Assembly (NCBI GenBank): GCA_963693365.1
Contig: CAVNZM010000001.1
Location: 2,124,907 to 2,188,906 of the forward strand
Source: Amoebidium appalachense
Taxonomy: Eukaryota; Protista; Ichthyosporea
Length of the DNA: 64,000 bases
Reading direction: 5' to 3'
Shown: positions 2,681 through 60,747 of the stretch, in pieces
Position numbering within the stretch: position 1 is the first letter of the stretch
Layout of the letters: each line of letters starts with the position of its first letter
Notes under the pieces: generated by a model
Databases searched by the model: none
The model's input: the letters and a program-made list of their open reading frames with translations, nothing else
What the model was told of the DNA's origin: nothing
Program-made: the position numbers and the translations under genes

Positions 2681-4360
2681 ATCCGGGGTCCCCCTCCTCC
2701 TGATACCACCCCGTCTGGGACGGGTGTGCCTGGGGGGGAGGGGGGGGGGTGTCCTGGGGGGTGGGGGGGATGCCCGGGGGGTTGTTGGGGTCGGCTGTGT
2801 ACAGTGGGATGATGGGACTGCTTGTTGGGGGTACGGGTGGGGGGGCTCCGGAGGGGGAGGGGGTGCTGGCCAGCCATATTGGACGGCCAGCTCCTTGGCC
2901 CTCTCCCAGAAACCCTGTGGATTTGCCGCCCGGTCCGTTGCATTGAGGAGCCGGTGTAGCTCCGCGTGCTCGTTGTCCTCCGGGAAGACCTTCGTCGGTT
3001 TTGACGTGGACTTCTCTGGTTTGCTCTTGGTCCGGCCCACTGTGGTTTTTGCCACCGAGAGAATGGTGGCGGCCATGTACTCCCATCTCCCTTCCACCTC
3101 CGCCTGGGTAGGGGTGGTGGTTGGGGGGGACGTGAAGGCTGCCTCCGTGCCGGTGGTAAAACGTGCCCAGTCCTCCTGTGTGGTGTTCGGTTTCAGCTGG
3201 AGTCTCGGTGTGGGTTGGTTTCGGGTTGGCCCTGGTCCCTGGCCCGGCAGGTTAGGATGGGGCCCAGTTTCGCACCAGGCCAGGTGGTGGTCGGTGTGAA
3301 GATCCGGTAATTCCGTGACGGAGGCTGAGACCAGTGCCGGGCGTAACGCCGCCGGGATGTATACGTAGTCGATGCGTGAGCGGTGGGGACCGCTGTGGTA
3401 CGTATATTCCCTGGTGGTGGGGTGTTCGGCTCGGTAGCTGTCTATGAGTAGATGGGCGTCCATCAGCTCGTGGAGCAGCCCGGGCACGAGTCCTGTGGGC
3501 ATTGCCTGTGCTGAACTGGGGCCGGTTTCGGGCCGTGCCCTGTCCAGAGTAGGGTGGCACACCTCGTTGAAATCCCCGGCCACGATGACAGTGGTGTCGT
3601 TGGGGGCCGGGAGGGAGGTGAGAAATCTGGCTACCTGTGAGGTGAGTCGACGGGCCTGTCTGACGTTTCCCTGTGTTGCATTCGTGTGTTGATAAAGTCC
3701 TATCACCCACGTTGTGTGCCGTTTTGTGTGATATGGAATAGCTAGCATTCGTGCATCTTTGCTATGTGGTTTTCCTTGGTGTCTAAACCACGTTTCGTTT
3801 GTAAGTATCACCACCCCCGTGTAGCGGAATCGTGTTTCCTCCTGGGCTAGTGACGGTGTGGTTTGGTCATTGGACGAGCTCTCTGCCACCGGGATACCGG
3901 CCTCTGAGGCAGAGAGTGTTGTGTGTGTGTGTCCAGTGGTGGTGGCTGGTGGGCATACATACGTGGCACGCATGGGGATACCTTCGTTTCGAATGGAAAA
4001 CTTTGTGCGTGTGAAGGAGCCCGGGGTGGTCCCGGTCTCCGTCAGAATGACTACGTCCATGTCTGCAAAGGCAGCCCACCTGGCTGCCTCGACGATCTTG
4101 TCCTGGCCGGTACGAGTGGTAGGTCCGGCCAGGTTTAAAGTTCCAATCCGAAGGTGGCTGTGTGGTTTGGCTGGTGGTAAATTTGCGTGGTTGATGGGCG
4201 AGACTAGCTCCCCTTCAAGTGCTTCCAGGGCTGTGTTCTGGTGGATCATGTCTGTGGCCTCTGGACCCGGACTTTGCGCTGTGCCGAGTGTTTGTGTGGT
4301 GTCGGGCGCTACCCCCTTTGCCGGCGCCGGGTGTCCGGGCGGGGGGGATGGGGTCGGCAT
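2108..4360 (-). pseudogene. LINE ORF2 N-terminus: APE/EEP endonuclease plus linker, continuing into the repeat array
   Basis: Motifs LRIGTLNLAG, DVVILTET, VIVAGDFNE, YTY..RSRIDYVYI and TDHHL, followed by the post-EN helix WEYMAATILSVAK. Confidence 0.85.
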
Positions 4361-4420
4361 TATGCCTGCCCGTCCCCATGCGATGGGGGACGGGCACCTT
4401 GGTCAGTTCCCCGTGTCGAG

Positions 4421-7674: not shown

Positions 7675-8276
7675 ATCAACTCGTGTCATCATCAAGGAAG
7701 TTCTAACCTATGACATACTGCAAAGACTCAGACATATCACACTTAACCTTGATGATTGGTTAAAGCCCGGCAACACATGAAAACTAAAGTAAATTAATGA
7801 AGTCTGAACACACATGTTATTCTAAGTGTAGCCTAAGTGTGTTACCGTCCAATGAACACGTATTAAGTAACACAAATCTACCTAACATATATTAGTAGAA
7901 AAGAAATACGATTATACACATGAAGACAAGGAGAGAAAGAAAAGAAAATAAGGAAGGAGAAAGAGAAAGGAAAAGAGAGCACAGATCAACAAACAAGATA
8001 GCAATAGCATAACTATAACCAGAGATATTTATGTACACACGAACATGTACACGTCTCTCCCTGAGTGGGTGGATCCGTGTACACACATATAAATATTCTA
8101 ATCGATATCACAATACACGATTAAAGCCGATACAACACGATTACAAGTATACAAGCATATCGGAGATCGATGCTACACTTTACATTCGGAGTGTGGCATT
8201 TACACTAAGCATATGAACTGAAACATAACACAAACTGAGAAGATCTTACCATATGTAAATACTACGTATTACAACA
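7675..8276 (-). mobile_element. Truncated Copia family-A LTR (5' ~600 bp)
   Basis: Near-identical to 24351-24954; begins TGTTGTAATACG at 8276 on the minus strand. Confidence 0.92.
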
Positions 8277-9926
8277 GTTGGAATGCGTATGCTCTGTCGG
8301 AATGTGTTTTTCTATCTTCTGATAGAACCGATTGGTTCTCCCTCTTTAGTTGTGATAAGATGATAAGTCGCAAGTACAAAAGGAACCGAGAGCACAATAA
8401 AGAATCAGTTGTTGTTTGAATCAATGTCTCGCGAACAACTCCGATTGCCCTCTCATGAATGTGTTAGTCGTGTTTTACATGACACCTCTGTGCACTCTGC
8501 TCCCTTAGACCCGTACAAAACAACAGGTTATAGGCCCATTTTCGCACGCTCTCGCAACACATACTCACACTGTAATCGAAAATACTCAAATTTGAATAGC
8601 GATCTGATTCCTCTCTCGCGCATCGTCTGACTGATTGATCACCATGTTGGAGATACCTGCGTATCTCAACCTCAGCCCCTGGAAAGGGGATGGCACCACG
8701 GACAAGAAGTCCGGCAAACGTCTCACCTATTATGAGTGGGAACCCGTCATCTTCCGGTACCTCCGTACTACCACCGCGGCCAAGTTAGTGCCCGTCATCA
8801 AGGCCCCCGAGTGGGTCGACCCTTCCGACGAGAACGAGTGGCATGGCTATCACACTGAGGAGGCCTACACCGAGGCTTCCAACTTCCTTGAACAGATGTT
8901 TACTCAACTCGTCTCCAATGATGAGCTGTATAACTCTGGCCAAATCCACGATGATGTGTCACCTGCCCAAGCTTTCCACAACGTCCGTATGACCTATGCG
9001 GCTGAACGTGAAGATCGTGCTCGTCAAATCTTCCTCGACTACCATGAGCTTGAACTCAAAGACTTCAAGACCGTCACGGCCTACCTCACCATGGCACGCC
9101 GTCTGTGCACTACCCTGCACATCCTCGAAGAGCCCATTCCTCACAAGACCATGGTTGATAACTTCTTTATCCACCTCAAAAAGAACCGTAAGTTAGTTTG
9201 TTCAGACATCCAGGCCATGATTGCCGACTACTTCCGTCGTACCATCAACTACGAGACCTACAACCGTCTAATCAGTGACATCCGAGCTGCAGAGATCCGT
9301 GAAGGTCTCATCGACTCTGGGTCCGGGTCCTCCTCAACCGTCCGAACAGCACGTGCCCTGCAAAGCCGTGTCCTCACCAAGGACTCGGCTTCAAACGTCC
9401 ACGTATGCCCAGTAAAGGAGTACTTCTCTACTCTTGAGCCGTACCCCCCGACTGACGTCCACGGCCTCGGCATCGTCACTGCACATCACCGTGGTGTCAT
9501 CAACCTGGCCGTCACCTACAACGGAGTAACATCAGTACTGAGCCTAAACACCCTCTACGTACCCGACTCCCCAGCCTTCCTGATTTCCCCCTCCATAGCC
9601 TCCAAGTCGGGTCTCCTTGCCCACCTCGATGATGAGGATGAATTCCCATCCTACCTCTACACTCGTGGTGGCAACATCGTGTGTTCCCTCACAGGCACAG
9701 ATGGACTGTACTTCATAACCGACTATGAGATACGTCCCTCCATCCCTCGGACCGTCACTGCTCTGGTAGCCAACGTCAAGGTCAACAATGACCCTCAGCT
9801 CTGGCACCACCGTCTCGGCCATAGTGCCCTGTCCACCCTCACCAAGATGGTGAGAGGTGACCTCGTGACAGGCCTCCCCTCATCCCTCTCAGTGGCTGAC
9901 ACCACTGACTGCTTCGGTTGTGTCTC
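8277..9926 (+). mobile_element. Copia family-B fragment: ~250-bp LTR (8277-8525), PBS GGTTATAGGCCCA (8526-8538), gag-PR-pre-integrase
   Basis: The LTR reads (T)GTTGG...AAAACAACA and is followed by a copia-type PBS. The element is cut at 9927 by a family-A LTR. Confidence 0.8.
8644..9926 (+). pseudogene. Copia-B gag / protease / GAG-pre-integrase, internally deleted and truncated
   Basis: The N-terminus resembles the family-A gag (WKGDG..TYYEWE). It contains the protease motif DSASNVHVCP and LWHHRLGH...CFGC. Confidence 0.85.
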
Positions 9927-10718
9927 TGTTGTAATACGTAGTATTTACTGTTGTAATACGTAGTATTTACATATGGTAAGATCTTCTCAGTCTGTGTTAT
10001 GTTTCAGTTCATATGCGTAGTGTATATGCCACACTCCTATTATGTAAAGTGTAGCATCGATCTCCGATATGCTTGTATACTTGTAATCGTGTTGTATCGG
10101 CTTTAATCGTGTGTTGTAATATCGATTAGAATATTTATATGTGTGTACACGGATCCCCCCACTCAGGGAGAGACGTGTACATGTTCGTGTGTACATAAAT
10201 ATCTCTGGTTATAGTTATGCTGTTACTATCTTGTTTGTTGATCTGTGCTCTCTTTTCCTTTCTCTTTCTCCTTCCTTATTTTCTTTTCTTTCTCTCCTTG
10301 TCTTCATGTGTATAATCGTATTTCTTTTCTACTAATATATGTTAGGTAGATTTGTGTTACTTAATACGTGTTCATTGGACGGTAACACACTTAGGCTACA
10401 CTTAGAATAGCATGTGTGTTTAGACTTCATTAATTCACTTTAGTTTTCATGTGTTGCCGGGCTTTAACCAATCATCAAGGTTAAGTGTGATATGTCTGAG
10501 TCTTTGCAGTATGTCATAGGTTAGAATTTCCTTGATGATGACACGAGTTGACCTTAACTAGTGTCTGTGTCCTATCGTGTACGTCTCCGCGTACCGGATC
10601 TCTCTGAAAGCAATTGGTTCTTAGTGATTGGTTTCTATTAGAGATAGATCTGATTTCCGACTGGTCGGAAATCATGTATGGATTGGACTTAGAGGAATTT
10701 CAGGTATTTATTCGAAGA
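9927..10718 (+). mobile_element. Copia-A LTR: a 22-bp LTR start (9927-9948) followed by a second LTR (9949-10718) that is interrupted by the Ngaro element
   Basis: TGTTGTAATACGTAGTATTTAC occurs twice in tandem. LTR similarity ends at ttcgaAGA (10718). Confidence 0.92.
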
Positions 10719-12098
10719 GGTTTTATTTGTGGAAATTATTGACATAAATATTTTTCTGGGTAAACACGTAGGATGGGTGTTCGATACCAACATAACCATG
10801 TAGGCTTCACTTTCGTGTTTTAGCAGTTAGCGGTTGGCTGCCCGCACACGGGCACCAAGTAGCCAATCAAAACATCAGATACCATAGATCACTAGACCGA
10901 GTTATGATTGGCTCGGATCAGATTTCACATATCACTAGATCGATTTTGATTGGCTCAGATCGGTAGGCTTAGGTATATAAGCACGACAGTTTTTAGCAGA
11001 TCAGCAAGCTACAAACACATCTTCTGTGTTTAGCATCCACAGCCTTACAGCTATATATTCCTTTTCATTCTCCCTATCTTTCCCTACGCCGGTCAGCATG
11101 CCGCCGAAAAAGCGCCAGGCCGCAGCCGCCGCCCCTGCCGCGGCACCTAAGCGCCTGACCCGCAGCGACCCCCGCCACAGGCTGACCAACGCTCCCGCGG
11201 ACACTGACGCGCCTCCAGCGGCCCATACCACCACGGACCCGGACCCGCCGGCCACTCTCCCCTCCACTCCTGAAGTCCCCCCTCAGGCCCCGCCGTCCCC
11301 GCAGATGACTTCTGAAGACGCCGTCCTTGCCGCCCTCACCGCCATCAGCACCCAGATGGCTGGCGTCCTGGCTGCTCTCACCAACCGCGACGCTCCCGCG
11401 CTCCCCGCCGCGCCCTCCACACCCGGGGAGGTTTCCCCGGGGCTGCATCTCGGCCCTGACCTAGACCTACCTGCCCTGCCCGCGCCCCCCATCACAGGTG
11501 AGAACACTGGCGACATTCAGCCGGGCACACTCCCGCTTCCCCCCGCGGATGTGCTGGCAGATTTGCGCGCCAATCGTTTCGTCGACCTGTATAAGTTCAC
11601 CCCCGCCGCCCTCCTGGCCCCATCCAAGAAATGTCAGCATCTGCGCATGGCCGACGACGGCAGCATCGAGACTTTTCGCCAAGACAAACCCGTTCCCCTG
11701 CGTTCACTCGTCATTTGGATCCAAGCTTGGACCCATTACATGGCCGCCAAGCACCACCTCGGCCTCCCCACGGACAAAAACGTACTTTGGACTCAGCACA
11801 TCACTCGCCTCAGCACCCGATACCCGTGGGCCCAGATCCACAACTATGACGTATACGCCCGCACCGTTGCCCACCAGCAGGGTCGGGCTCCGATCGAGTG
11901 TCCCAACCTGCTCGCCCAACTCCACCAGGATCTCCTCCTGCCACCCACTCTGCTCATCCCGGACGCATGTCAGCGCTGTGGCTTCCCCGACCACCCCAGC
12001 GCGGCCTGCCCCATGTACCCCAAGCCCGGCTGTGGTCTTGACGGCTTTAAGTGTTGTAATACGTAGTATTTACATATGGTAAGATCTTCTCAGTTTGT

Positions 12099-14278
12099 TG
12101 TTGTAATACGTAGTATTTACATATTGTAAGATCTTCTCAGTTCGTGTTATGTTTTCATTCATTTACTTAGTGAAAAAGATGTGCTCCTTGTACGTAAACT
12201 ATGACATCTATCTCCAGTGTATTTGAGTACTTGTAATCGTGTTGTGTCGGCTATATTCGTGTGTTTAGATATCGATTACAGCAACTGATTATAGGTACAC
12301 GAGTCTACCCAGTGAGGTAGAAACGTGTACATGTTATGTGTACATGAATATCTTCGGTTATAACTGTGTTTTGCTGTTCGTGTTTTCTGTCCTGCTTTCT
12401 TTTCTTTTTCCTCTTTCTTCTTCTTTCTTTTCTCTTTCTTTCTTCTCTTGTTTCCTTTCACATAATTATATTTCTCTCTCACTAATATACGTTGAGTAGA
12501 TTTATATTACTCGTTATGTTTTGATTGGTAGAAAAACACTTAGGCTACACTTTAGCTTGTCAGGTATGATTCATAGCTTAGTCAAACACTTTTGTTTTGT
12601 GTGTTGCCGTACTATATCCAATCAGTGGACTTAGTCAGAAAATGTCTGAGTCTTTGTAGCCGATGATAGGTTAGAAACATCACCTCTTTCCTCGTTACTC
12701 TTCACCTCTTTTCTTTCTTATAGCTGTGACCTATGGTGTGCGTTCCTGTGCCTCCGGATCTATCCGGGAAATAATCAGTTAATTGTGATTGGTTATTTTA
12801 GACATAGATCTGATTTCCGACTGGTCGGAAATCATGTATGGATTTAACTTAAGGGAATTTCAGGTATTTATTAGCGATCAAAATAAATTGAGTTCAGTCG
12901 TGTCTAAACATTGATGTCTGTTGTGTACACTTCTCCGATCGCTCCGTGTTTTGTTGTTGTGTGTGTCTGTGGTGTTTTCACACTGCACCACTGTGTCTCT
13001 GCTTACATCCCAAATACTTATACAATTAAACAGGTTATGGGCCCAGATGCACGCTCCCTACACACACCTAGACCTAGCGATCGTTAAATTCCTGGTACAC
13101 ATCATAGCTGTGGTCAGCTCCTCATGCATCTTGGTGCTGAGGCTGTGTACATCCATCCCCGGCGTCCGTCCGTAACCGGTCCCACGTGACTCCTCTTGAC
13201 AAGATCTGACTCATCTTGACAAGAGCTTTTGCCACGCCTTGACACCCGTGACATCCTCGCAAGTTCAAATTCCAGCTTGCACTCCTTCCAGCTCCGTCCT
13301 GGTTTCTCTCCGTCACGCCAAACCGTCCTCCACCCTTGGTTCTGCAATCGCGCTCCAAGTTCCTTGACACTTCACCGACGTGGTCTCAACCGCGCCGCCC
13401 TGTCTACCCAGGCCTGAGGATCCTGCATCGAAATCCCATTCCATCCGATTTCGAACCCCGTCAACCCGCATTCGAATATAATTTCACACCCCGTCTGCGT
13501 TCCAATCGACGATAATTTGACACCCCGTCTCGATCCGACTTGACCTTCATCCATCAAGTCCATCTGAAGTATCCAAATTCGGTACTTCTTTCCAGTCTAC
13601 CGTGTTCCACCCCGTCCAAGCCCTTTGTGCTTCCCTCCTCCCTAGGAGTCCCGACCCTGAGTCCCTCCAGAACCGTTTACCGTGTCCAACCTGCTTCCTT
13701 CCAGGATTTCCAACCCTGTTTTCGGCCATGTCTCCCCTTACCGTGCCGTCACTGTCAATGGCCCCCTCACATTCCATTGATCTGCCCTGCATTCCGGCAG
13801 CAGTTTCCCCCCATCACGTGGCCAACCTCGTCGAGATGCCAGCTACCACCAGCTCTGCACGGGCAACAGCTACCCCTGCAGCTGTTTCCCCCCCATTACC
13901 ACCCGACCCCGGCCAGCAAGACACGTGCTGCCAGGTCCGGCCGTTCCCATCCACGTTTCTAGCCAGCCTACCGTGCTGCCTGCCCGCGTTTCCGAAACCC
14001 CTGCCCCCGACCCAGTTAGTACCAGTTAGTGGAATGATTACTACCTACTTTACCACCATCATTATTTCATATGTATTGCCTTTGTGGGTATGCCCACTTA
14101 GGGTTTATATATAAGGTTTGACCTGTACCATGACTCTACTCTATCTTTCACTGGTTTAAAACCCAGTTAAACAAACCCCGACTATACACGTTATATATAT
14201 TTGTTGTTTTTGCCCCGGTTCCTCCCCCCCCCTCCCCCCCTTCCCCCCCCCCTTCCCCCCCCCCCCCTCCCCCCCCTT

Positions 14279-14309
<31 letters not shown>

Positions 14310-14853
14310 GAAAAGTCCAAACTTTAATTTTTTTTTTCCGTTTCTGTTCTCAAGTGGGGAGATTTCACTAGTTCAGTGGGGATATGATAACACAAACTTC
14401 AAAGTCTTAAGTGGGGATGTTGTAATACGTAGTATTTACATATTGTAAGATCTTCTCAGTTCGTGTTATGTTTTCATTCATTTACTTAGTGAAAAAGATG
14501 TGCTCCTTGTACGTAAACTATGCCATCGATCTCCAGTGTATTTGAGTACTTGTAATCGTGTTGTGTCGGCTATATTCGTGTGTTTAGATATCGATTACAG
14601 CAACTGATTATAGGTACACGAGTCTACCCAGTGAGGGAGAAACGTGTACATGTTATGTGTACATGAATATCTTCGGTTATAACTGTGTTTTGCTATTCGT
14701 GTTTTCTGTCCTGCTTTCTTTTCTTTTTCCTCTTTCTTCTTCTTTCTTTTCTCTTTCTTTCTTCTCTTGTTTCCTTTCACATAATTATATTTCTCTCTCA
14801 CTAATATACGTTGAGTAGATTTATATTACTCGTTATGTTTTGATTGGTAGAAA
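12099..14853 (+). mobile_element. Non-autonomous Copia derivative (variant A' LTR 12099-13032, PBS 13033-13046, PPT 14409-14417, truncated 3' LTR 14418-14853)
   Basis: PBS GGTTATGGGCCCAG and PPT AAGTGGGGA. The internal region has no recognisable pol and is shared with 32198-34171. Confidence 0.88.
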
Positions 14854-15294
14854 TCGCAGGCCACCAGCCGATCATGATCTGATTCATGCGATCGGACTGG
14901 ATAACGATACCATCTTCCAACATCCCCACTCAGGACGAATCGCAGAATCAGGTTAGGGTGGACTGCCCCCTCAGTCCCCACTGAACCTCTGTTCATGCTA
15001 CCATTTTGGATTTTGTCCTGGTGCAGAGACTAGCGATCTTGCTAGCCTTGAGATCACAACCTAACCACTGCCGATGGTTGTGATGACGCCAGTAAAGGCG
15101 TGCTGGCTTTTACCCCAGCGAGAAGAGGATGAGAAAAAGATGATCCCGACGGGATTTGAACCCGCGACCCCTCTATCTCCGGTCGAGTGCTCTCTACCAA
15201 CTGAGCTACGAGATCGGTTAAGATCTCGCAGGCCACCAGCCGATCATGATCTGATTCATGCGATCGGACTGGATAACGATACCATCTTCCAACA
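14854..15294 (-). mobile_element. TRIM-like miniature LTR element: ~290-bp 5' LTR (15294-~15005) containing a tRNA-like gene, ~81-bp internal region, truncated 3' LTR
   Basis: 69-bp direct repeat at 14854-14922 and 15226-15294, beginning TGTTGGAAG on the minus strand. PBS-like TGGTAGCA at 15003-14996 and PPT GAGTGGGGA at 14931-14923, directly before the second TGTTGG. Confidence 0.75.
15141..15215 (-). tRNA. tRNA-like gene embedded in the TRIM LTR; non-canonical anticodon loop CCGGAGA, resembling Cys/Phe/Tyr scaffolds
   Basis: Acceptor stem GATCTCG/CGGGATC, A box TAGCTCAGTTGG, D stem GCTC/GAGC, T arm GCGGG-TTCAAAT-CCCGT, and a TTTTT terminator 3 nt downstream. Confidence 0.8.
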
Positions 15295-16548
15295 TTTGTG
15301 TTATGTTTCAGTTCATATGCTTAGTGTATATGCCACACTCCTATTATGTAAAGTGTAGCATCGATCTCCGATATGCTTGTATACTTGTAATCGTGTTGTA
15401 TCGGCTCTAATCGTGTATTGTAATATCGATTAGAATATTTATATGTGTGTACACGGATCCACCCACTCAGGGAGAGACGTGTACATGTTCGTGTGTACAT
15501 AAATATCTCTGGTTATAGTTATGCTATTACTATCTTGTTTGTTGATCTGTGCTCTCTTTTCCTTTCTCTTTCTCCTTCCTTATTTTCTTTTCTTTCTCTC
15601 CTTGTCTTCATGTGTATAATCGTATTTCTTTTCTACTAATATATGTTAGGTAGATTTGTGTTACTTAATACGTGTTCATTGGACGGTAACACACTTAGGC
15701 TACACTTAGAATAGCATGTGTGTTTAGACTTCATTAATTTACTTTAGTTTTCATGTGTTGCCGGGCTTTAACCAATCATCAAGGTTAAGTGTGATATGTC
15801 TGAGTCTTTGCAGTATGTCATAGGTTAGAATTTCCTTGATGATGACACGAGTTGACCTTAACTAGTGTCTGTGTCCTATCGTGTGCGTCTCCGCGTACCG
15901 GATCTCTCTGAAAGCAATTGGTTCTTAGTGATTGGTTTCTATTAGAGATAGATCTGATTTCCGACTGGTCGGAAATCATGTATGGATTGGACTTAGAGGA
16001 ATTTCAGGTATTTATTCGAAGATCAGAATAAATTCAGTTCAGTCGTGTCTAAACATTGATGTCTGTTGTGTACACTGCTCCGATCGTTTCGTGTTTTGTT
16101 GTTGTGTGTGTCTGTGGTGTTTTCACACTGCACCACTGTGTCTCTGCTTTCATTCCAAATACTTATACAATTTAACATTAAGCCGCCCCAAAAGCCCGGC
16201 GGGGGTCAAACCCCTAACCGCCCTGGCCCGCAACCCGGCCCGGCAAAACCGGCCCGACCCGTGGATCTACCCGCGACGCACTGCAGGAATTTCCACATTA
16301 ACGGTCGGTCCTGCGCTAAGCAGCCCTGCCCCTTCTCCCACGTGTGCCCGCTCTGCTCTGGCACACACCCCCGCAAAGACTGCAAGCACAATGCCTAGTC
16401 TACGCGCACACCCACACACACAGCTAGAACATAGGGGTTAGGAGCTAGGACACACGAGTACAGGGAAACGGAGCTCGGGAGCACGGGCCAATAGGGCTGA
16501 GTACAAATTTCGCAGGCCAACTACGGCGCCCGCGCGCGTCAAGAATAA

Positions 16549-18526
16549 ATGTCCCTACACAAAGACGTTTATTCTGGCCACTGCACATAATTTTACTCCC
16601 CCCCCCCCCCATCCCACGAGCCTCCCCCCCCCCCCCTTACACTCACCTAGCACTCCCTCCCCCCCCCCTTCTTCTACCTCTGTGTCCGCCCACACCCCCG
16701 CGTGCTCGGGCACATTCCCCTGCACAGGGCCCCGCTGCCCTCCCTGCATCACCTGTGCCCAGCTGCCCTACTCTGACCCCCCGGGGCCCTGCTGCCCCCC
16801 CCCCCCCCCCCCCCCCCCCCTCCCCCCCCCCCCCCCCCCCCCGCTGCCGGGATCTCCCCAAGGGTGCCCCACCCTTGCTAACCACCCCTTCCCCCGAGGC
16901 TCAGACCCGGAGGCCCGCCCGCTGCCCCAGCACCACATTGACACCTCCCGCCTCCGGGAACTGCTGGCCTCCTACCCAGACCAATCATTCGCCGCACAAC
17001 TCCTCCACGATGTCGAATTCGGCGTCGACAGCGGCTATCGCGGCCCCTCCACCTCTCGGGTGGGCCCCAACCTACCCACCACCCCGGAGGCAGCTGCCGC
17101 TATCACGGCGGATATTGCCAAAGAAGTCGCCCTCGGCCACCTGCGCGGCCCCCTCCCCCCGGCCCAATTCTTTGACGAATTTCCGGTCCACCGCTCCTCC
17201 CCCATCGGCGCCGTTACCAAGAAAGGGAACCCCCCCAAGTACCGTCGAATCCACCACCTCTCCTGGCCCCGGGGTAGCAGTGTCAATGACAGCATCACCT
17301 ACCCCGACGAACTTCAGTACATTCGCGCCCGGGATGTCACCCAGCTCATTCTCGACGCCGGCCCCGGCTGCTACATGGCCGTGGCAGATGTGCAGGCTGC
17401 CTTCCGGCACATGCCCATCCGACCAGAAGACCACCACTTAATGGCATTCAAATGGCAGGGGCATTTTTACGTTGAAACCAGACTGCCCTTCGGCCTGAAA
17501 TCTAGCCCAGCCATCTGGGAACGGATCGCGGCCACCCTACAGTGGCTGGCACACCAGCACGGTATTACCCCCATCCGCCACTACGTAGACGACTGGATTA
17601 TAGTCGCCCCCACACAAGAGCAGTGCCAACGTCACCTATCCACCTTCCTGCAACTCTGCCGAGAGCTGGACATTGCCATCTCCGAAGACAAGATGCAGGG
17701 CCCGGCTACCCGTGTCGTCTTCATCGGTATCGAATTCGACTCCATCGCCATGGAGGCACGAATCCCGGCTTCCAAGCTCTCGGACCTACTCGACCTCACT
17801 TCCCACCCAAAGCCCACCATCACCATTCGGGACCTCCAGTCCCTCCTCGGCAAACTCACCTGGTGTGCCCAGCTGGTTCCCCCCGGGAGGGCCTTCTCCC
17901 AGCGCCTATGGGCCCTTCTCCGGACCCACCCACACCTTGCCGGCCACCACCACATACGACTGACTGCTGCCGCCCGGGCCGACATAGCCGAATGGCACCA
18001 GTTCCTCACATCATGGAATGGGGTCCACCTCATCACACCCCCCACATACACCACCCTGGCCACCGATGCTGCCGGATCGGTGGGTCTAGGAGGCCACTGG
18101 CTCGACCAATGGTTCTTCATGCCCTGGTCCCCCTCCACCCAAGCCCTCTATGCTCATGAGGGTAAACTCGGTTCTTCCGTCATCGAACTCCTGGCCATCG
18201 CAGCCGCCGTGGCCCTCTGGGCCCCCTCCTGGTCCACCCACCATGTCCGTATTTTATGCGACAACACGGGTGCTGTGTCTGACCTGCACTCCCGGTCTTC
18301 CCCCCACCCCGTGATGGCCAAACTTATTCGGTTCATCACCCGCATGGAAATGCAATACCAATTTACGTTACAGGCATCCTACCTACCAGGACCCCTCAAC
18401 CATCTGGCCGATGCCATTTCTCGTAACCAACTTCCCCGGGCCCGACGACTCCGACCTTCCCTGCAACCGGAGCCCTGCCCCTTCCCCTCCTGGGTCCACG
18501 AGTTCCTATCCCTTCCCTTGGGCTAA
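16549..18526 (+). CDS. Ngaro ORF2 reverse transcriptase-RNase H (the N-terminus crosses poly-C runs, so the frame is uncertain before 16682)
   Basis: KYRRIHHLSWPRGSSVND, ADVQAAFR, RLPFGLKSSP, HYVDDW, TDAAGSVGLGG, IELLAI, CDN, NHLADAISR. Confidence 0.93.
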
Positions 18527-18529: not shown

Positions 18530-18927
18530 CCCCCCCCCCCCCCCCCCCCCAGATCTCCCGTTCCGGAGCAACACTGGCAGATTGGCCCCCCACTTTGCTC
18601 CGGCCGAGCTGCGTCGAGCCACCACTACCCTGCAGGAATGCCAGGCCCTGAGTCTCAACCTCGACTCTCGGGCCTTTTACTCCCGGGTGCAAAAAGTGTT
18701 CATCGATTTCTGTGTGGCATCTCGGCTGCAATCCTCCTCCGGGTCCTCCCTCCCGGCCTCCCCCCACACCGTGCAACTTTTTCTCGCCTGGTGTGCCCAA
18801 CGAGGGGTACAGGCCTCTTCCTTAACCGGCTACAATTCGGCCATCACCAGGCTCCACCTCGACATGGGCCTCCCTGCTCCCTACCCCCACGACAAGTCTC
18901 TGGCCTGGTTCCTACGGGGGGTGGGCA
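18530..18927 (+). pseudogene. Ngaro ORF3 tyrosine recombinase, N-terminal fragment
   Basis: TVQLFLAWCAQRGVQASSL.GYNSAITRLH matches the start of 35407-36249; truncated by the junction to a Copia LTR. Confidence 0.85.
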
Positions 18928-21900
18928 TATAAATATTGTGGCATCTAATCGATATGACAATACACGATTAGAGCCGATACAACACGATTACAAGTATACA
19001 AGCATATCGGAGATCGATGCTACACTTTACATAATAGGAGTGTGGCATTTACACTAAGCATATGAACTGAAACATAACACAAACTGAGAAGATCTTACCA
19101 TATGTAAATACTACGTATTACAACATCCCCACTTAAGACTTTGAAGTTTGTGTTATCATATCCCCACTGAACTAGTGAAATCTCCCCACTTGAGAACAGA
19201 AACGGAAAAAAAAAAAAAATTAAAGTGTGTACTTTTCCGGGGGGGGGGGGGGGGGGGGGAGAAGGGGGGGGGGAGGGGGGGGGGAAGGGGGGGGGGAAGG
19301 GGGGGGGGAAGGGGGGGGGGAGGGGGGGGGGGGGGGGGGGGAAGGAACCGGGGCAAAAACAACGAATATATATAACGTGTATAGGCGGTGTTTGATTAAC
19401 TGGGTTTTAAACCAGTGAAAGATAGAGTAGAGTGATGGTACAGGTCAAACCTTATATATAAACCCTAAGTGGGCATACCCACAAAGGCAATACATATGAT
19501 ATAATGATGTTGATAAAGTAAGTAGTACACATGAGAAAATCACTCTTGAAGTAGGTCGGGTCAATCCACAATATCCGGTAAACAAAGTCGAGCACGATGG
19601 TGGACATGACTCGGGCCGGGGAGGGGTTTGGTGAGTATGTCAGCTAAGTTGTGGGCTGACTCAACGTAGTGGACAACCACGTCCCCACTGGCAATGTAGT
19701 CCTTGGTGTTGTGATACCGGACGGCAATGTGTTTGGTACGGTGCTTGATGCCGGTGGAGTTGACGATGGCAATGGTCGACTGGTTGTCACAGTACACCGG
19801 AGTCGGAGCAAGCATGGGACAGCCGAGTTCCTTGAAGAGGTCACGGACCCAAGCAACTTCTTGGGTGCCAGCATTGAGAGCAATCAGCTCAGCTTCAGTG
19901 GTGCTGGTGGCCGTGATGGGCTGGAGCTTGGAGTACCAGATGACGGGCATACCAGCAAACACGATAATGTAGCCGGTGGTAGACTTCTTGCTGTCGGCAC
20001 AACCAGCAAAGTCAGCATCCGTGTAGCATTCGAGTATGGGGGACTGGGTGGCCGAGTACTTGTAGTCAATGCCAAGGTCAATGGTGCCGAGCAGGTACCG
20101 GGCCACACGACGGAGAAGGTCCCAGTGAGTCTTGCCGGGGTTGGTGCTGAACCGACCAAGGAAGCCGATGGCATAGGCAATGTCGGGACGTGTGCACCGT
20201 GCCACCCAGAGGAGACGGCCGAGTAACTCACGGTAGGGCACGGTGAACGGTTGGGGGGGGCAATCAGCCAGGGAGACGGTGGTGCCTGCAGGGATGGGGG
20301 TAGACTTGGACTTGGCATCGGTGAGGTTGAAGTCGTGGATGATATCCATGATGTAAGACCTCTGGTGCATGTGGAGGTGATGGGGATCAGAGTGATTAAA
20401 ATCAACACCGAGCATACGGTCAAATGGACTCATACGACAGCTGGCCATCTTGCTGATGTGGGCAGCCAGGTCACTGGCAGCAGTAGAACCCCGGGTGTTG
20501 GTGATGGTGGAGTCATCGACGTAGTTACCAGCCCGTACCACATCGTTGTTGGGGAAGAACCGGAGGTAGATGCACGGGTCGGTCTTAGTACGGGTCAGGC
20601 CATGGGCAAGAAGAATGCCGTCGAGGAAGTCGTACCAAGCCTTGGAGGCTTGCTTGAGGCCGTACAGGGCTTTCTTGAGTCTCCAGACCTTGCCAAGTGT
20701 GGCCATGGTGATGAATCCCGGGGGTTGTTTCATGTAGATGGTCTCGGTGAGTGGGCTGTTGAGAAAGGCCGTAGACACGTCGAGTTGATGTATGTCATGA
20801 CCTTCAACAACGGCCAGAGCTAGGATGGCACGGAGAGCAGCCGGACGGATGACAGGGCTCTCAATCAACTCATAGTCAACACCGTATTGCTGACTGAAGC
20901 CTTGAGCAACACCACGTGCCTTGATCTTGGTGTCACCAGCCGAGTTGAGAGTTTTCTCGGAGACAATCCACTTGAAGCCGACGATGTTAGCACCAGGGGG
21001 AGGGTCAACAAGTTCAAAGATGTCTTTGTCGACGAAGGCTTGATACTCAGCAGTCAGGGCTGACTTGACCTGATCACCATTGGGTCCGGAACAGAGTTGA
21101 CGGACAAGTTTGGGTAGTTGGTCGATGTTGATGGGGGGACCGGGGGGGACTGGCAGGGTGGTGGTGGCTTGAAGTCCAACCTTGCCCTGGAGACGGGCAG
21201 AACGACGGGGTGCAGGAACCGGGGTAGGTGGAGACGGTGGGGGGGGAACTTGGAAGTTCGGAAGTGCAGGGGGGGCAACCTCCGGGCTGGACGGGGCCGA
21301 GTGGAAGTTGTCGGGGGAGCCGGGTCGGATGGGTGTGACGTTGCCAGGGCCAGGATGAGGGTCGGCAGGCTGGACGGGCACGGGGGCAGGGGGGCCGGTG
21401 GGGGGGGGTGTCGGGGGAACGACGATGGCAGGAGGGGGGCCAGAGTACACCAGACAAACATCATCTTCAGTGTCAACTGTGGGGGGTGGGGTGGTCGAGG
21501 TAGCAGTGGTGTCGGGGGTCGGAAGGGTTGATGGAATGTCGGACGGGAGATAAGCTGATTCGTCGAAAATCACATCACGGAAGAGGCCGACACGATGGGT
21601 GGTGGCATTGAAGATCCGGTGGCAGTGTGATTGAAGATCATAGCCGATATACATGCCGAGTTTGACGGTGGGGGCCAGCTTGTTCCGTTTAGAGGCTGGC
21701 ACGTGAGTGTAGGCAGGGCAACCGAACACTTTGAGCTCGGAGATGTCGGGCTTGACACCGTAGAAAACCTCGAATGGTGTACGACCATTGGCAGTCGTGG
21801 ACGGGGTGACGTTGATGATGTAGGCGGCATGTTGGAGGGCCTCAGCCCACAGTTTGGGAGACAGAGACTGATCTTGGACTTGATGGAGGAGGCAACGGAC

Positions 21901-24900
21901 AATCTCTTGGAGGAACCGCATACGTCGTTCAACATAGCCGTTCAGTTGAGGGCAGTCCACCGGAGCATAGCTGGCCTTGATGCCCTGGGAGAGGCAAAAA
22001 GCACGGGTATCCTTGGAGGTGAACTCAGAGCCGGAGTCGAAGTGGTAAACACCAACTTTGGAGGGGGCATGGGTGGCAACGAGGTTGGTGTGAGCTGTGA
22101 GAATATCCAGGGTGGTGGTACGGTCGGCCATCGGGTAGATCTTGACGAGGCCAGAGGCACGGCAGACAGTGACGAGAGCAACCTTGGAACCTCCGTACGA
22201 TGTTGTGGTAGGCTCAAAAAAATCCCAATGCCATTCATGACCGGGGATGTTGGAGTGAGGACGGTCACCCCTGAACGGAGCCTTGGTGGTCTTACCCATA
22301 ATGCAGCCATGACAATCAGGAACATCACAGTCGAGGACAGAGGAGGGGAGACCAATAACAAGGTCGTGTTTCACCATGTCCTTGATGCTGGTCATAGCTC
22401 GGTGCCCCAGACGATGGTGCCAGATGGATGGGTTAACACTGGTAGTGGCAGCCAGAGCCACAGGACGAGTGGGTGGTTGAATGGTGTAGTCCTTGAAGTA
22501 ATACAGACCGTTGTGTAGACGGAGGTTGACGAGATGACGGCCGGTGAGTCGGTCGAAGAGGAATGACGGAGTGGAGGCATCGTTCAAATCACCCTTGATG
22601 TATTCGGCAGCAGCTTGGGATGTTGAAATGAGGAAGGCTTGGCCAGACGGGGTGTAGTAGGCTTCAATGGTTAGGGTGGTAGTGCCATGGTCGGTGGTGG
22701 TGTTGATGACGATATGGCCGGTGTGAGTGGCCAAGACGGGGGTGCCATTGAAGGCAGCAACGGGAGTCGGTGTCGGAAGGGGAGTGAGGTCATGGAAGAA
22801 CTCACGGGTGGGGCAAACAGTCATGTTGCACCCGGAATCCCAGGCAGGGTCGGAGGACACGGGGACGGAGCTAGCATTGTATGCCGAGAAAGCAAAGGAG
22901 ACAGATTTCTCACTGCCTTGACGGGAACGGTTGTGTCTGGACATACGGCATTTCGGCTCAGGGCAATCGATGATCGTGTGATCAGGCTCGTGGCAGTAGG
23001 AGCATTCTTTCACGGACGGGGTGTTAGAACGAGCCGGGGAATCAGAACGACGGGAACCCGAGAAACGGGAACGACTGGGGGAACGAGACGTGGACCGGAA
23101 GGCAGGCCGGTGGGGGGAACGGGATCGGGTGTGCTGACGGGAGAGACGAGTTCGGAGGTCCGTGCCAGAGGTACGGTCAAGTCGGGTGCGTAAGTCACGG
23201 CGAGGAAGATCACGGGGGGGAGCACTGGCATTTAATGCCATGCTGGACTTGGAGGCACGGTGGGCACGGTTGTTCCGGAGTTGCATCTTGAGGTCTTGAC
23301 GTAACTCGATGCCCTTGACGTGGTTATGGAGGGACTCGAAGTCGGGGAATAGCTTATCACCGAAGTGATAGTCTTCGATAAGACGATTGAACTCAGGGGT
23401 GAGGTCGTCTCTGGTGGTGAGTTCATTGAAGAACTTCTCAGCTAGACGAGTGAAGTGAATGGACTCATCTTGGAGAGACTGGAGCTGGTTCACGATGGTC
23501 TGCAGACGGCTCAGGTAGGTGGTGAATGATTCACCGGGCTGAAGGGCACAGGCATCCCACTGACGGTGAAGGATGCGGATCTGATCGGGTTTGCCTTGGA
23601 GATAGTGTTGACGGAATTTCCACATGGCCCGTTCAGGGTCCATGCCAATACGGTACTGGGCAACGGTGGTGAGGACGGAAGGGTCGATGTTCTGTATCAT
23701 ATGGAGCAGGAGGCAATTGCGGGCCTCTTTGAGTTCCGCGGTAGTGCCGTAGCCATAGAAGGGGGGTTCACCGTCAACCGCGACGGTGGTAGGGGGGACG
23801 TAGTTGTCAGCAAGGACAACATCCACGAGTCGGACACCTTTAGTGCCGGTCATCATGCCGAGAAAAATGATTTCCCATTGAAAATAGGTAGTTTTGCTAT
23901 CGGGACCAGTCTTCCCTTCACCTTTCCACATGGTGATTTTGTTTACGCCAGTTTTGTTTGGATCCATGATTGAAAAACGAGCGCGAGTTCTAGATGTGTG
24001 TAGGGAGCGTACAAAAGGGCTGCATAACCTGTTAACTTCTATAAGTATTTGGGATGTAAGCAGAGACACAGTGGTGCAGTGTGAAAACACCACAGACACA
24101 CACAACAACAAAACACGGAACGATCGGAGCAGTGTACACAACAGACATCAATGTTTAGACACGACTGAACTGAATTTATTCTGATCTTCGAATAAATACC
24201 TGAAATTCCTCTAAGTCCAATCCATACATGATTTCCGACCAGTCGGAAATCAGATCCATCTCTAATAGAAACCAATCACTAAGAACCAATTGCTTTCAGA
24301 GAGATCCGGTACGCGGAGGCGTACACGATAGGACACAGACACTAGTTAGGATCAACTCGTGTCATCATCAAGGAAGTTCTAACCTATGACATACTGCAAA
24401 GACTCAGACATATCACACTTAACCTTGATGATTGGTTAAAGCCCGGCAACACATGAAAACTAAAGTAAATTAATGAAGTCTAAACACACATGCTATTCTA
24501 AGTGTAGCCTAAGTGTGTTACCGTCCAATGAACACGTATTAAGTAACACAAATCTACCTAACATATATTAGTAGAAAAGAAATACGATTATACACATGAA
24601 GACAAGGAGAGAAAGAAAAGAAAATAAGGAAGGAGAAAGAGGAAGGAAAAGAGAGCACAGATCAACAAACAAGATAGTAATAGCATAACTATAACCAGAG
24701 ATATTTATGTACACACGAACATGTACACGTCTCTCCCTGAGTGGGTGGATCCGTGTACACACATATAAATATTCTAATCGATATTACAATACACGATTAA
24801 AGCCGATACAACACGATTACAAGTATACAAGCATATCGGAGATCGATGCTACACTTTACATAATAGGAGTGTGGCATTTACACTAAGCATATGAACTGAA

Positions 24901-24954
24901 ACATAACACAAACTGAGAAGATCTTACCATATGTAAATACTACGTATTACAACA
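18926..24954 (-). mobile_element. Ty1/Copia element, family A: 5' LTR 24030-24954, PBS, intact polyprotein, PPT, truncated 3' LTR 18926-19125
   Basis: The LTR reads TGTTG...TTAACA. PBS GGTTATGCAGCCC; PPT AAGTGGGGA at 19126-19134. Confidence 0.96.
19561..23967 (-). CDS. Copia gag-pol polyprotein (gag CCHC, PR, IN, RT, RNase H), 1468 aa from the ATG at 23967
   Basis: CSYCHEPDHTIIDC; WDSGCNMTVCP; WHHRLGH..CHGC; DSGSEF..NGYVER; LDVSTAFL, LYGLKQA, YVDD; YTDADFA, TEAE, CDN, NLADILTK. Integrase precedes RT. Confidence 0.97.
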   Translation of the reverse strand: MDPNKTGVNKITMWKGEGKTGPDSKTTYFQWEIIFLGMMTGTKGVRLVDVVLADNYVPPTTVAVDGEPPFYGYGTTAELKEARNCLLLHMIQNIDPSVLTTVAQYRIGMDPERAMWKFRQHYLQGKPDQIRILHRQWDACALQPGESFTTYLSRLQTIVNQLQSLQDESIHFTRLAEKFFNELTTRDDLTPEFNRLIEDYHFGDKLFPDFESLHNHVKGIELRQDLKMQLRNNRAHRASKSSMALNASAPPRDLPRRDLRTRLDRTSGTDLRTRLSRQHTRSRSPHRPAFRSTSRSPSRSRFSGSRRSDSPARSNTPSVKECSYCHEPDHTIIDCPEPKCRMSRHNRSRQGSEKSVSFAFSAYNASSVPVSSDPAWDSGCNMTVCPTREFFHDLTPLPTPTPVAAFNGTPVLATHTGHIVINTTTDHGTTTLTIEAYYTPSGQAFLISTSQAAAEYIKGDLNDASTPSFLFDRLTGRHLVNLRLHNGLYYFKDYTIQPPTRPVALAATTSVNPSIWHHRLGHRAMTSIKDMVKHDLVIGLPSSVLDCDVPDCHGCIMGKTTKAPFRGDRPHSNIPGHEWHWDFFEPTTTSYGGSKVALVTVCRASGLVKIYPMADRTTTLDILTAHTNLVATHAPSKVGVYHFDSGSEFTSKDTRAFCLSQGIKASYAPVDCPQLNGYVERRMRFLQEIVRCLLHQVQDQSLSPKLWAEALQHAAYIINVTPSTTANGRTPFEVFYGVKPDISELKVFGCPAYTHVPASKRNKLAPTVKLGMYIGYDLQSHCHRIFNATTHRVGLFRDVIFDESAYLPSDIPSTLPTPDTTATSTTPPPTVDTEDDVCLVYSGPPPAIVVPPTPPPTGPPAPVPVQPADPHPGPGNVTPIRPGSPDNFHSAPSSPEVAPPALPNFQVPPPPSPPTPVPAPRRSARLQGKVGLQATTTLPVPPGPPINIDQLPKLVRQLCSGPNGDQVKSALTAEYQAFVDKDIFELVDPPPGANIVGFKWIVSEKTLNSAGDTKIKARGVAQGFSQQYGVDYELIESPVIRPAALRAILALAVVEGHDIHQLDVSTAFLNSPLTETIYMKQPPGFITMATLGKVWRLKKALYGLKQASKAWYDFLDGILLAHGLTRTKTDPCIYLRFFPNNDVVRAGNYVDDSTITNTRGSTAASDLAAHISKMASCRMSPFDRMLGVDFNHSDPHHLHMHQRSYIMDIIHDFNLTDAKSKSTPIPAGTTVSLADCPPQPFTVPYRELLGRLLWVARCTRPDIAYAIGFLGRFSTNPGKTHWDLLRRVARYLLGTIDLGIDYKYSATQSPILECYTDADFAGCADSKKSTTGYIIVFAGMPVIWYSKLQPITATSTTEAELIALNAGTQEVAWVRDLFKELGCPMLAPTPVYCDNQSTIAIVNSTGIKHRTKHIAVRYHNTKDYIASGDVVVHYVESAHNLADILTKPLPGPSHVHHRARLCLPDIVD

Positions 24955-25818
24955 CATATGCTTAGTGTATATGCCACACTCCTATTATGTAAAGTGTAGA
25001 ATCGATCTCCGATATGCTTGTATACTTGTAATCGTGTTGTATCGGCTCTAATCGTGTATTGTCATATCGATTAGAATATTTATATGTGTGTACACGGATC
25101 CACCCACTCAGGGAGAGACGTGTACATGTTCGTGTGTACATAAATATCTCTGGTTATAGTTATGCTATTACTATCTTGTTTGTTGATCTGTGCTCTCTTT
25201 TCCTTTCTCTTTCTCCTTCCTTATTTTCTTTTCTTTCTCTCCTTGTCTTCATGTGTATAATCGTATTTCTTTTCTACTAATATATGTTAGGTAGATTTGT
25301 GTTACTTAATACGTGTTCATTGGACGGTAACACACTTAGGCTACACTTAGAATAGCATGTGTGTTTAGACTTCATTAATTTACTTTAGTTTTCATGTGTT
25401 GCCGGGCTTTAACCAATCATCAAGGTTAAGTGTGATATGTCTGAGTCTTTGCAGTATGTCATAGGTTAGAATTTCCTTGATGATGACACGAGTTGACCTT
25501 AACTAGTGTCTGTGTCCTATCGTGTACGTCTCCGCGTACCGGATCTCTCTGAAAGCAATTGGTTCTTAGTGATTGGTTTCTATTAGAGATAGATCTGATT
25601 TCCGACTGGTCGGAAATCATGTATGGATTGGACTTAGAGGAATTTCAGGTATTTATTTGAAGATCAGAATAAATTCAGTTCAGTCGTGTCTAAACATTGA
25701 TGTCTGTTGTGTACACTGCTCCGATCGTTCCGTGTTTTGTTGTTGTGTGTGTCTGTGGTGTTTTCACACTGCACCACTGTGTCTCTGCTTTCATCCCAAA
25801 TACTTATAATATTTAACA
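24955..25818 (+). mobile_element. Copia-A LTR lacking its first ~61 bp; abuts the leader of Ngaro copy 2
   Basis: Near-identical to 15314-16177; ends ATTTAACA with no PBS following. Confidence 0.92.
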
Positions 25819-35389: not shown

Positions 35390-35394
35390 CGGCC

Positions 35395-36249
35395 TCCCCC
35401 CACACCGTGCAACTTTTTCTCGCCTGGTGTGCCCAACGAGGGGTACAGGCCTCTTCCTTGGTCGGCTACAATTCAGCCATCACCAGACTCCACCTCGACA
35501 TGGGCCTCCCTGCTCCCTACCCCCACGACAAGTCTCTGGCCTGGTTCTTCCGAGGGGTGGGCAGATGGCAGCTTTCTCACAACATCCGACCCCGATCATC
35601 CACCAGGGAGCCCCTCCTGCCCTCCCACCTTAGCCTACTCCATGGCCAGTGCCCCACCAAGGCCTCCTCGGCCAATCTACGGCTATGGACGGCCCTCATC
35701 GTCGGTTTCTGTGGTCTCCTCCGTTCGGGGGAATTTACCTCCAAAACCCTGACTTCCTTTGACCCGTCCCGTCACGTTAAACGGAAAGACGTGACCTTCA
35801 CCTACACCCCCACCGGTGCTTTGTCCCATGCCACCCTCCACCTGCCAACCTCTAAGACGGATGTACAGGCCCGAGGTGTCAACGTCACTCTAGCTGCCCT
35901 GCCCTTCACCCAATTCTCCCCAGCCCATCTCCTCCGGCAGTTCCTGGATACAACGTCCGGTCAACCCAACGACCCCCTCTTCAGTCTCGGTGGCATCCCC
36001 TACACCAAGAGTGCTTTCTCTGCCGACTTCCGTGCCCTCCTCTCCCGGGCAGGCTTGTCACCCTCCCGGTTTGCCGGACACAGCCTCCGCATCGGGGGGG
36101 CCACAGCACTGGCTGAGGCCGGGGTCGACGACTCCCGGATCAAACAACTCGGCAGGTGGTCCTCCGACTGTTTCCTGATCTATACCCGACTTCGTCCGGC
36201 CTCCATTGCTGCCACTACCACACGTGTATTCGCCTCTATTCTTAAGTGA
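35395..36249 (+). pseudogene. Ngaro tyrosine recombinase catalytic domain (N-terminus at ~27740-27950, split by the Gypsy insertion)
   Basis: GLLRSGE, LPTSKTD, GHSLRIGGAT and LGRWSSDCFLIY give the R-K-H-R-W-Y catalytic set. Confidence 0.93.

Positions 36250-60574: not shown

Positions 60575-60654
<80 letters not shown>

Positions 60655-60707: not shown

Positions 60708-60747
<40 letters not shown>

What the first reader, a model, noticed from the sequence alone, without database searches (positions are those of the whole stretch)
14854..15294. TRIM-like retrotransposon carrying a full tRNA cloverleaf in its LTR (tRNA analogue of Cassandra)
Seen on the minus strand, in order: TGTTGG start, 79 bp, a 75-nt tRNA fold with intact A and B boxes and a TTTTT terminator, LTR end ..ATCCA(AAA), PBS-like TGGTAGCA, ~81 bp of non-coding internal sequence, PPT GAGTGGGGA, then TGTTGG again (a 69-bp identical copy, cut just before the tRNA). 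The stems pair but the anticodon loop (CCGGAGA, C at position 33) is non-canonical. Known: plant Cassandra TRIMs carry 5S rRNA Pol III promoters in their LTRs, SINEs use tRNA heads but lack LTRs, and TGGTAGCA complements the animal-type tRNA-iMet 3' end. Inference: this is a Pol III-linked miniature LTR parasite, or the tRNA mimic serves as a TFIIIC barrier against silencing or as a packaging signal. I do not know a described tRNA-in-LTR family, but I could not search.
Basis: partly seen in the sequence, partly recalled or inferred. Interest (0 to 1): 0.85.

Follow-up and report, generated by a model that had tools for sequence, protein, structure and literature searches.

The report
Helenus-type mini-retrotransposon in animal-relative protist
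A real, gene-less miniature LTR retrotransposon carries a tRNA-like sequence in its terminal repeat; it belongs to the Helenus type described in 2024, lies in what is likely an ichthyosporean protist (a host group not listed for that type), and sits tail-to-tail with a Copia element inside one five-base target duplication, so it likely borrows Copia machinery.

Summary
The anatomy is real: a 291-bp LTR with a tRNA-like unit (Rfam 54.7 bits), PBS, 81-bp internal part, PPT and 69 bp of a second LTR. The type is not new: it is Helenus (Kojima 2024, PMC10886601), and this scan noted Helenus-type elements on other DNA (64 findings).

Public runs point to a multi-copy family with the tRNA in a full LTR. 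A neighbouring gene places the host likely in Ichthyosporea, a group absent from Kojima's table.

Extras:
- The 3' LTR was cut by a fusion to a Copia element. The pair lies tail-to-tail inside one 5-bp duplication in a Copia solo LTR.
- The PPT/LTR junction matches the local Copia, but the PBS does not.
- The end of U3 forms a predicted 20-bp hairpin with the tRNA's 5' arm (0 of 3000 shuffles).
- U5 is long and structured.

Pol III transcription and the identity of the helper are inferred, not shown. Verdict: a new member of a known kind, in a new host lineage.

The parts
15004..15294 (-). 5' LTR, 291 bp (TGTTGG..CCAAAA)
15216..15294 (-). putative U3, 79 bp
   Evidence: U3/R/U5 labels are inferred from the Pol III model
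15196..15244 (-). predicted 20-bp hairpin between the end of U3 and tRNA nt 1-20 (5 G.U pairs)
   Evidence: -24.9 kcal/mol, 0 of 3000 shuffles
15141..15215 (-). tRNA-like unit (putative R region), C33, GGA anticodon, short variable loop, G.A in anticodon stem
15197..15208 (-). A box (TRGCY at tRNA position 8, YGG at 17)
15152..15161 (-). B box (GGTTC / GTTCRANNC)
15134..15138 (-). T5 run, putative leaky Pol III terminator; the only T-run of 4 or more on this strand
15027..15119 (-). four predicted hairpins in the 137-nt U5
   Evidence: z -4.2, 0 of 200 shuffles; equally stable on the other strand
14996..15003 (-). PBS TGGTAGCA, 3'-end tRNA-Met(i) type
   Evidence: same first 8 nt as the GalEa PBS; starts 7 fungal Helenus internal parts
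14923..15003 (-). internal part, 81 bp, with a second AGTGGGGA box at 14982-14975
14923..14931 (-). PPT, shared with the local Copia (16 of 19 nt across the PPT/LTR junction)
14854..14922 (-). 3' LTR remnant, 69 bp, identical to the 5' LTR start
15295..15299 (+). right copy of the 5-bp duplication TTTGT (Copia-A LTR positions 43-47)
12094..12098 (+). left copy of the 5-bp duplication TTTGT
12099..14853 (+). non-autonomous Copia-family element B; 3' LTR cut at position 436 and fused tail-to-tail to the TRIM
12052..16177 (+). Copia-A solo LTR (925 bp, own duplication TTAAG) split by the B+TRIM insert
18926..24954 (-). Copia with an open 1528-codon gag-pol frame (19561-24147); candidate helper family

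Best explanation
This is one truncated copy of a Helenus-type TRIM, a gene-less LTR retrotransposon of a likely multi-copy family that is likely transcribed by RNA polymerase III from the tRNA-like unit in its LTR and likely copied and inserted by Copia proteins in trans. Shown: LTR with tRNA-like A and B boxes, PBS, PPT, second LTR, and a U3 end flush against a 5-bp duplication in a Copia LTR. Inferred steps: (1) Pol III starts at the tRNA unit of the 5' LTR and sometimes reads through the T5 run. (2) It stops at the T5 of the 3' LTR, giving a roughly 450-nt RNA with the tRNA unit as R at both ends. (3) In the 3' copy the end of U3 would pair with tRNA nt 1-20 and hide it from tRNA-processing nucleases; the 5' copy has no U3 in front. 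(4) Host initiator tRNA primes at the PBS and the PPT primes the second strand. (5) A Copia integrase inserts the cDNA near the start of Copia LTRs. The tRNA unit is likely a promoter, not a working tRNA. For this copy's damage, I give about 0.5 to a second insertion at the same site followed by a deletion, about 0.4 to one integration that used a Copia-B end and a TRIM end, and 0.1 to other routes.
For: Definition and examples in PMC10886601. Kojima's box motifs are present. 19 of 24 listed runs hold at least half of the words (four coded organisms, 5 named studies plus 8 rows with no study; one run may be the source). In 4 runs laid: X1 and X6 give a 400-nt contig that passes from the PPT through U3 into the tRNA (joint 15225 to 14854); X2 gives a 400-nt contig and a different flank at the LTR start; X6 has another branch at 15023; X10 has an LTR contig at depth 4540 against an internal contig at 2128 (about 2:1), with minor variants at 27-73. 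Neither new flank is in the window. The PPT/LTR junction matches the local Copia at 16 of 19 nt (0-1 of 2000 shuffles as good). 3 of 3 mapped insertion sites in Copia-A LTRs lie in the first ~66 of 925 bp (the third read by eye). U3/tRNA hairpin 0 of 3000; duplex 0 of 2000.
Against: No direct RNA evidence: all runs are contigs, and the RNA label of X1 is a guess. A closed loop can be assembled from a 69-bp repeat alone, and the tool warns that depth is not copy number; only 21 of 238 pieces were shown. The T5 sits 2 nt after the tRNA in the 5' LTR, so read-through must be assumed. The PBS differs from that of every Copia read in the window: A and B have GGTTATG and D has GGTTATA, the anticodon-loop type, and TGGTAGCA occurs once in 64 kb. 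The helper may therefore be a family not seen here. The cloverleaf is marginal in the energy model: 151 of 250 shuffled U3 also bring the acceptor stem below 0.01, and 10 of 250 do as well as the real one. The host placement rests on one gene.
Confidence: 0.75

Rival explanations
1. A Helenus by anatomy, but transcribed by Pol II (from U3 or from the Copia LTRs it sits in); the tRNA unit acts as a TFIIIC barrier or as a processing signal that defines the RNA ends.
For: T5 directly behind the tRNA in the 5' LTR; insertion into Copia LTRs; Pol III transcription of Helenus is unvalidated.
Against: No TATA or poly(A) motif in the element (recalled motifs); intact A and B boxes beside a decayed anticodon arm; the U3 hairpin would mask both tRNA copies in a transcript that starts upstream.
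Confidence: 0.14
2. The family spreads mainly as tandem arrays or 370-nt circles (one-LTR DNA circles or retrozyme-like circular RNA) rather than as dispersed two-LTR copies.
For: Closed 370-nt loops in X1, X6 and X2, with no branch listed for X1; the LTR end lacks CA at the PBS; tandem arrays are known for Cassandra and one fish Helenus.
Against: LTR:internal depth is about 2:1 in X10, not 1:1; no ribozyme in Rfam up to E 10 and no core motif on the sense strand; this copy has a clean U3 end at a 5-bp duplication; a terminally redundant RNA or a two-LTR element gives the same loop.
Confidence: 0.07
3. A one-off tRNA or SINE insertion in one LTR, or a local 69-bp duplication with no family.
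For: The window has one copy and its 3' LTR stops before the tRNA.
Against: The tRNA-bearing LTR is at high depth in four runs, with variant bases and other flanks; the break is a fusion to Copia-B.
Confidence: 0.03

Closest known systems
Helenus (TRIMp3), Kojima 2024, PMC10886601; fungal families such as Helenus-5_PSt, Helenus-1_CCin, Helenus-1_AmAr
   Same: Non-coding TRIM within the 311-1263 bp range; TGTT start; tRNA-like unit with boxes A and B followed by a T-run; PBS TGGTAGCA flush with the LTR; no self-priming match; Copia-type context.
   Different: Host likely ichthyosporean (not in Table 1 or the supplement). The tRNA lies in the 5' half of the LTR with 137 nt of structured U5 behind it, against roughly 10-55 nt by eye in the fungal LTRs I read (supplement parts 1 and 4 of 11, plus snippets). 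The U3 anti-tRNA hairpin and the fusion to a Copia are not described in the parts I read. None of three marker strings tied it to a listed family.
Cassandra (plants) and Ajax (nemerteans)
   Same: Small-RNA-derived Pol III promoter inside the LTR of a TRIM.
   Different: They carry 5S rRNA sequence; here there is a tRNA fold and no 5S match.
GalEa-clade Copia (PMC5445492, PMC3587641)
   Same: PBS TGGTAGCAGAGC right after the 5' LTR; the first 8 nt are identical.
   Different: Autonomous; no such element is in the window; the match stops after 8 nt.
Double insertions at one target site (McGurk and Barbash 2018, PMC5932611)
   Same: Two elements at one site, including inverted LTR pairs; deletions often span hobo tandem junctions.
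   Different: There the tandems are surveyed per element family and often keep the target motif between them; here two unrelated families are fused, both inner ends are lost and there is no microhomology.
Retrozymes (PMC4918200, search listing only)
   Same: Small non-autonomous LTR elements with structured RNA.
   Different: No hammerhead or other ribozyme found here.

Membership tests
Helenus | TRIM shorter than about 1 kb, no coding capacity | tested here: met
   441 bp here, 659-663 bp predicted; no ORF of 150 aa or more overlaps it
Helenus | two LTRs in direct orientation | tested here: met
   291-bp LTR plus 69 identical bases of the second; the second is truncated in this copy
Helenus | tRNA-derived sequence in the LTR with TRGCY and YGG (box A) and GGTTC (box B) | tested here: met
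Helenus | tRNA-like unit present in both LTRs of one copy | tested here: inconclusive
   contigs run from the PPT into the tRNA and LTR:internal depth is about 2:1, but no single molecule or full copy was seen; no genome is held
Helenus | PBS next to the 5' LTR | tested here: met
Helenus | PPT next to the 3' LTR | tested here: met
Helenus | 4-6 bp target site duplication (5 bp in fungi and plant, 4 bp in animals) | tested here: inconclusive
   5-bp TTTGT flanks the Copia-B plus TRIM unit; if B inserted first, the TRIM's own duplication length is not fixed
Helenus | repeated family | tested here: met
   depth in the thousands against 27-73 for minor variants in X10, other flanks in X2 and X6; a hint from contig depth, not a count
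Helenus | tRNA-like unit usually non-functional (isotype/anticodon disagreement) | tested here: inconclusive
   Ser anticodon with a short variable loop, C33 and a G.A pair (tRNA-Ser long arm and U33 rule recalled); tRNAscan-SE not available
TRIMp3 | transcription by RNA polymerase III | not testable with these tools
   only contigs available
Cassandra / Ajax | 5S rRNA-derived sequence in the LTR | tested here: not met
   no 5S match up to E 10
Retrozyme | self-cleaving ribozyme in the LTR | tested here: not met
SINE2 | tRNA head at the 5' end with a LINE-type tail and no LTR, PBS or PPT | tested here: not met
   the tRNA lies inside an LTR, with PBS and PPT

The most novel reading that the evidence does not exclude
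This locus is a frozen co-integration: one Copia integrase complex joined the U3 end of a Copia-B cDNA and the U3 end of a Helenus cDNA to one target (single TTTGT duplication), and the two free ends were trimmed and joined. That would be direct genomic proof of a Helenus helper, and of one with a different PBS type. The element would also use a U3-encoded anti-tRNA hairpin as a switch that hides its 3' tRNA copy from processing, a rule not described for Pol III-type TRIMs, in the first single-celled holozoan host.
Probability: 0.25. Interest if true: 0.65.

Novelty: new member of a known kind. Interest (0 to 1): 0.38.

Why it matters
Three things remain of value. (1) A Helenus in an ichthyosporean would sit between the fungal and animal families and looks like the fungal, Copia-linked form; that bears on whether Helenus is old in opisthokonts or was born repeatedly. 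(2) Kojima states that Pol III transcription is unvalidated and that it is not known how a TRIM's dependence on its helper is kept. A young family beside an open-frame Copia, sharing its PPT and one target duplication, makes both questions testable. (3) Copies will be miscalled as tRNA-Ser(GGA) genes, as ARAGORN did here.

Tried and rejected
No whole genome is held, so full copies could not be counted. Exact-pattern scans found nothing in metagenome contigs, viral contigs or prokaryote genomes.

Parent tRNA: phage tRNAs match at about 75-81% in the 25 rows shown of 124 (mostly Ile, also Asp and Asn), so the isotype is unresolved.

Composite tRNA joining both RNA ends: predicted at 0.99, but also in 33 of 33 U3-shuffled and 31 of 33 U5-shuffled controls (the third control did not finish, and timed out). 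It is generic, so rejected as evidence.

Masking of the 5' tRNA copy by the start of U5: not specific (149 of 300; duplex 1638 of 2000). The first masking control (204 and 162 of 300) used rounded values with many ties; repeated unrounded it gave 10 of 250 (dinucleotide shuffles) and 1 of 300 or 2 of 150 (mononucleotide shuffles).

Self-priming: no complement of the PBS in the element. Ribozyme: none. A defective-U5-end model was considered and given low weight, because published Helenus LTRs also end without CA.

The Copia protein search gave no relative above about 40% identity and no host clue. 28 further ORFs had no Pfam hit. The tRNA unit alone is not more stable than shuffles (z -1.2).

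Full report
Observation. From 15294: TGTTGG, 79 bp, a tRNA fold at 15215-15141, T5 at 15138-15134, the LTR end at 15004, PBS TGGTAGCA, an 81-bp internal part ending in GAGTGGGGA, and 69 bases identical to the LTR start (14922-14854). ARAGORN calls tRNA-Ser(GGA), the only tRNA in the window. Rfam gives 54.7 bits, E 1.7e-10. The fold has C33, a G.A pair in the anticodon stem and a short variable loop. By recalled rules (U33; long arm in tRNA-Ser) it is likely not a working tRNA.

What is known. A paper search found Kojima 2024 (PMC10886601). I read parts 1-4 of 6 of the text, the figures and tables section, passages, supplement parts 1, 4 and 10 of 11 and two term searches in the supplement. Helenus is defined as a TRIM with tRNA-derived sequence in its LTRs, with PBS, PPT and 4-6 bp duplications, 311-1263 bp long. 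It is listed in rust and agaric fungi, six animal phyla and Selaginella. [quoted passage not shown] Seven of the 11 occurrences of tggtagca in the supplement are starts of fungal internal parts. The same 8 nt begin the GalEa Copia PBS, complementary to the 3' end of tRNA-Met (passages of PMC5445492 and PMC3587641). Kojima's box motifs are all present here.

Is there a family? No genome is held and the window has one copy. Of 24 listed runs, 19 hold at least half of the words. I laid 4, all as contigs. X1 and X6 give a 400-nt contig that closes on itself with a 370-nt period, passing from the PPT through U3 into the tRNA. X2 gives a 400-nt contig and a second flank at the LTR start; X6 has a branch at 15023. 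Neither flank is in the window. In X10, an LTR contig has depth 4540 and an internal contig 2128, while minor variants have 27-73; this fits tens of mostly two-LTR copies. All four runs show a 2-base shorter, canonical D loop. Limits: a loop can arise from the repeat alone, depth is not copy number, 217 pieces were not shown, and X1's RNA label is a guess.

Host. The window holds Copia, LINE and tyrosine-recombinase frames and a methyltransferase gene. The best of 278 hits to that gene, after itself, is 73% identical and comes from Amoebidium parasiticum. In a tree of 27 rows chosen from those hits, it groups with that protein and one unnamed row (100/98), next to a group holding Creolimax and Sphaeroforma (93/88, not starred). 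The host is likely an ichthyosporean; this rests on one gene. No ichthyosporean is in Kojima's Table 1 or supplement. Paper searches found no report: 0 papers; no Amoebidium in the 20 listed of 465; 3, 10 and 3 listed; none on this by title or abstract start. A term search of PMC11244446 gave no mention of tRNA or SINE. Repbase and Dfam could not be searched.

Setting. A 925-bp Copia-A solo LTR (12052-16177, duplication TTAAG; 911 of 925 identical to the 5' LTR of the open-frame Copia at 24954) is split at its positions 43-47. TTTGT stands at 12094-12098 and at 15295-15299. Between them lie element B (12099-14853, plus strand, 3' LTR cut at 436) and the TRIM (minus strand, 3' LTR cut at 69), tail-to-tail and without microhomology. 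The outer ends are thus the U3 end of B and the U3 end of the TRIM. B's LTRs differ at 4 of 436; 0 of 69 in the TRIM fits the same age (p 0.53) but does not prove it. Two routes fit. One is double insertion at a preferred site plus a deletion (precedent: passages of PMC5932611); truncated LTRs are common in this nest and insertions cluster near the LTR start. The other is one integration using ends of two cDNAs, with host repair of the free ends (related one-ended events in retroviruses: a passage of PMC7912079). My searches for this exact case found no description (passages of PMC11899658). Either way, a TRIM end sits at a site that a Copia-family end also used.

Helper. The TRIM and the local Copia share 16 of 19 nt across the PPT/LTR junction (0-1 of 2000 shuffles) and both repeat the AGTGGGGA box upstream. 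Their PBSs differ: the Copia families have GGTTAT(G/A), the string that starts most fungal Helenus internal parts I read and that I take to be the anticodon-loop iMet type. So the superfamily is likely Copia, but the family is open.

RNA structure. U5 has four hairpins (z -4.2, 0 of 200; whole LTR z -5.6, 0 of 100), equally stable on both strands. The end of U3 pairs with tRNA nt 1-20 over 20 bp, with 5 G.U pairs (-24.9 against -10.5 +/- 3.0 kcal/mol, 0 of 3000); the opposite strand folds at only -15.2. In a Pol III transcript only the 3' tRNA copy would have U3 in front, so the hairpin would hide that copy from processing. This is a prediction, and shuffled U3 often breaks the cloverleaf too (151 of 250 below 0.01). 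An old inverted duplication with no role is not excluded. A composite-tRNA fold and masking by U5 failed their controls. No ribozyme, 5S or self-priming signal was found.

Earlier scan notes. None by sequence, in this genome or for this lineage. By words, 64 findings in at least 19 genomes mention Helenus-type elements (8 shown, unchecked). Two gave leads that I tested: ribozyme and self-priming, both negative. I also read passages of PMC13570524 and PMC7215508.

Verdict. The element is a Helenus by the paper's working definition (about 0.9); two features are inconclusive only because this copy is broken. The Pol III plus Copia mechanism is inferred (0.75 overall). It is a new member of a known kind in a likely new host lineage, with an informative junction and an unusual LTR layout. 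Interest 0.38.

Noticed in passing
window 18926-24954 (-): Copia with an open 1528-codon gag-pol frame; best relatives only about 40% identical in RT/RNase H; its 3' LTR is cut near 200 bp and it is inserted near position 62 of another LTR of its own family.
   Followed up: partly
window 9927-9949, 12052-12099, 24954-24955: Copia-family insertions cluster in the first ~66 bp of the family's own 925-bp LTR, which hints at self-targeting.
   Followed up: partly
window 7675-8276, 9927-10718, 14418-14853, 18926-19125: Truncated LTRs in this nest mostly keep the U3 end and lose the U5 side, which might reflect one-ended integration.
   Followed up: no
window 31263-35106 (-): Young non-autonomous Copia derivative (LTRs 934 of 935 identical, duplication ATTTA). 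At 32855-32871 its foreign internal part joins the RNase H tail at a 17-nt string identical to the TRIM's PPT/LTR junction.
   Followed up: partly
window 15091-15114 (-): The loops of the first two U5 hairpins (GGTAAAAG and TTTACT) are complementary over 6 nt: a possible kissing-loop or dimer signal.
   Followed up: partly
window 8277-9926 (+): Fragment of a second Copia family with a short (~250 bp) LTR, flanked by two outward-facing Copia-A LTR ends.
   Followed up: partly
window 35263-36249 (+); 37689-40931 (-); 2108-4402 (-); 16442-18526 (+): Tyrosine recombinase frame (DIRS-like, label recalled) and LINE-type RT and endonuclease frames.
   Followed up: no
window 45181-46305 (-): Single-frame Methyltransf_22/FkbM methyltransferase gene, used here to place the host.
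   Followed up: yes
window 1-2680; 60408-62192: A ~216-bp tandem repeat array and a second degenerate repeat block.
   Followed up: no
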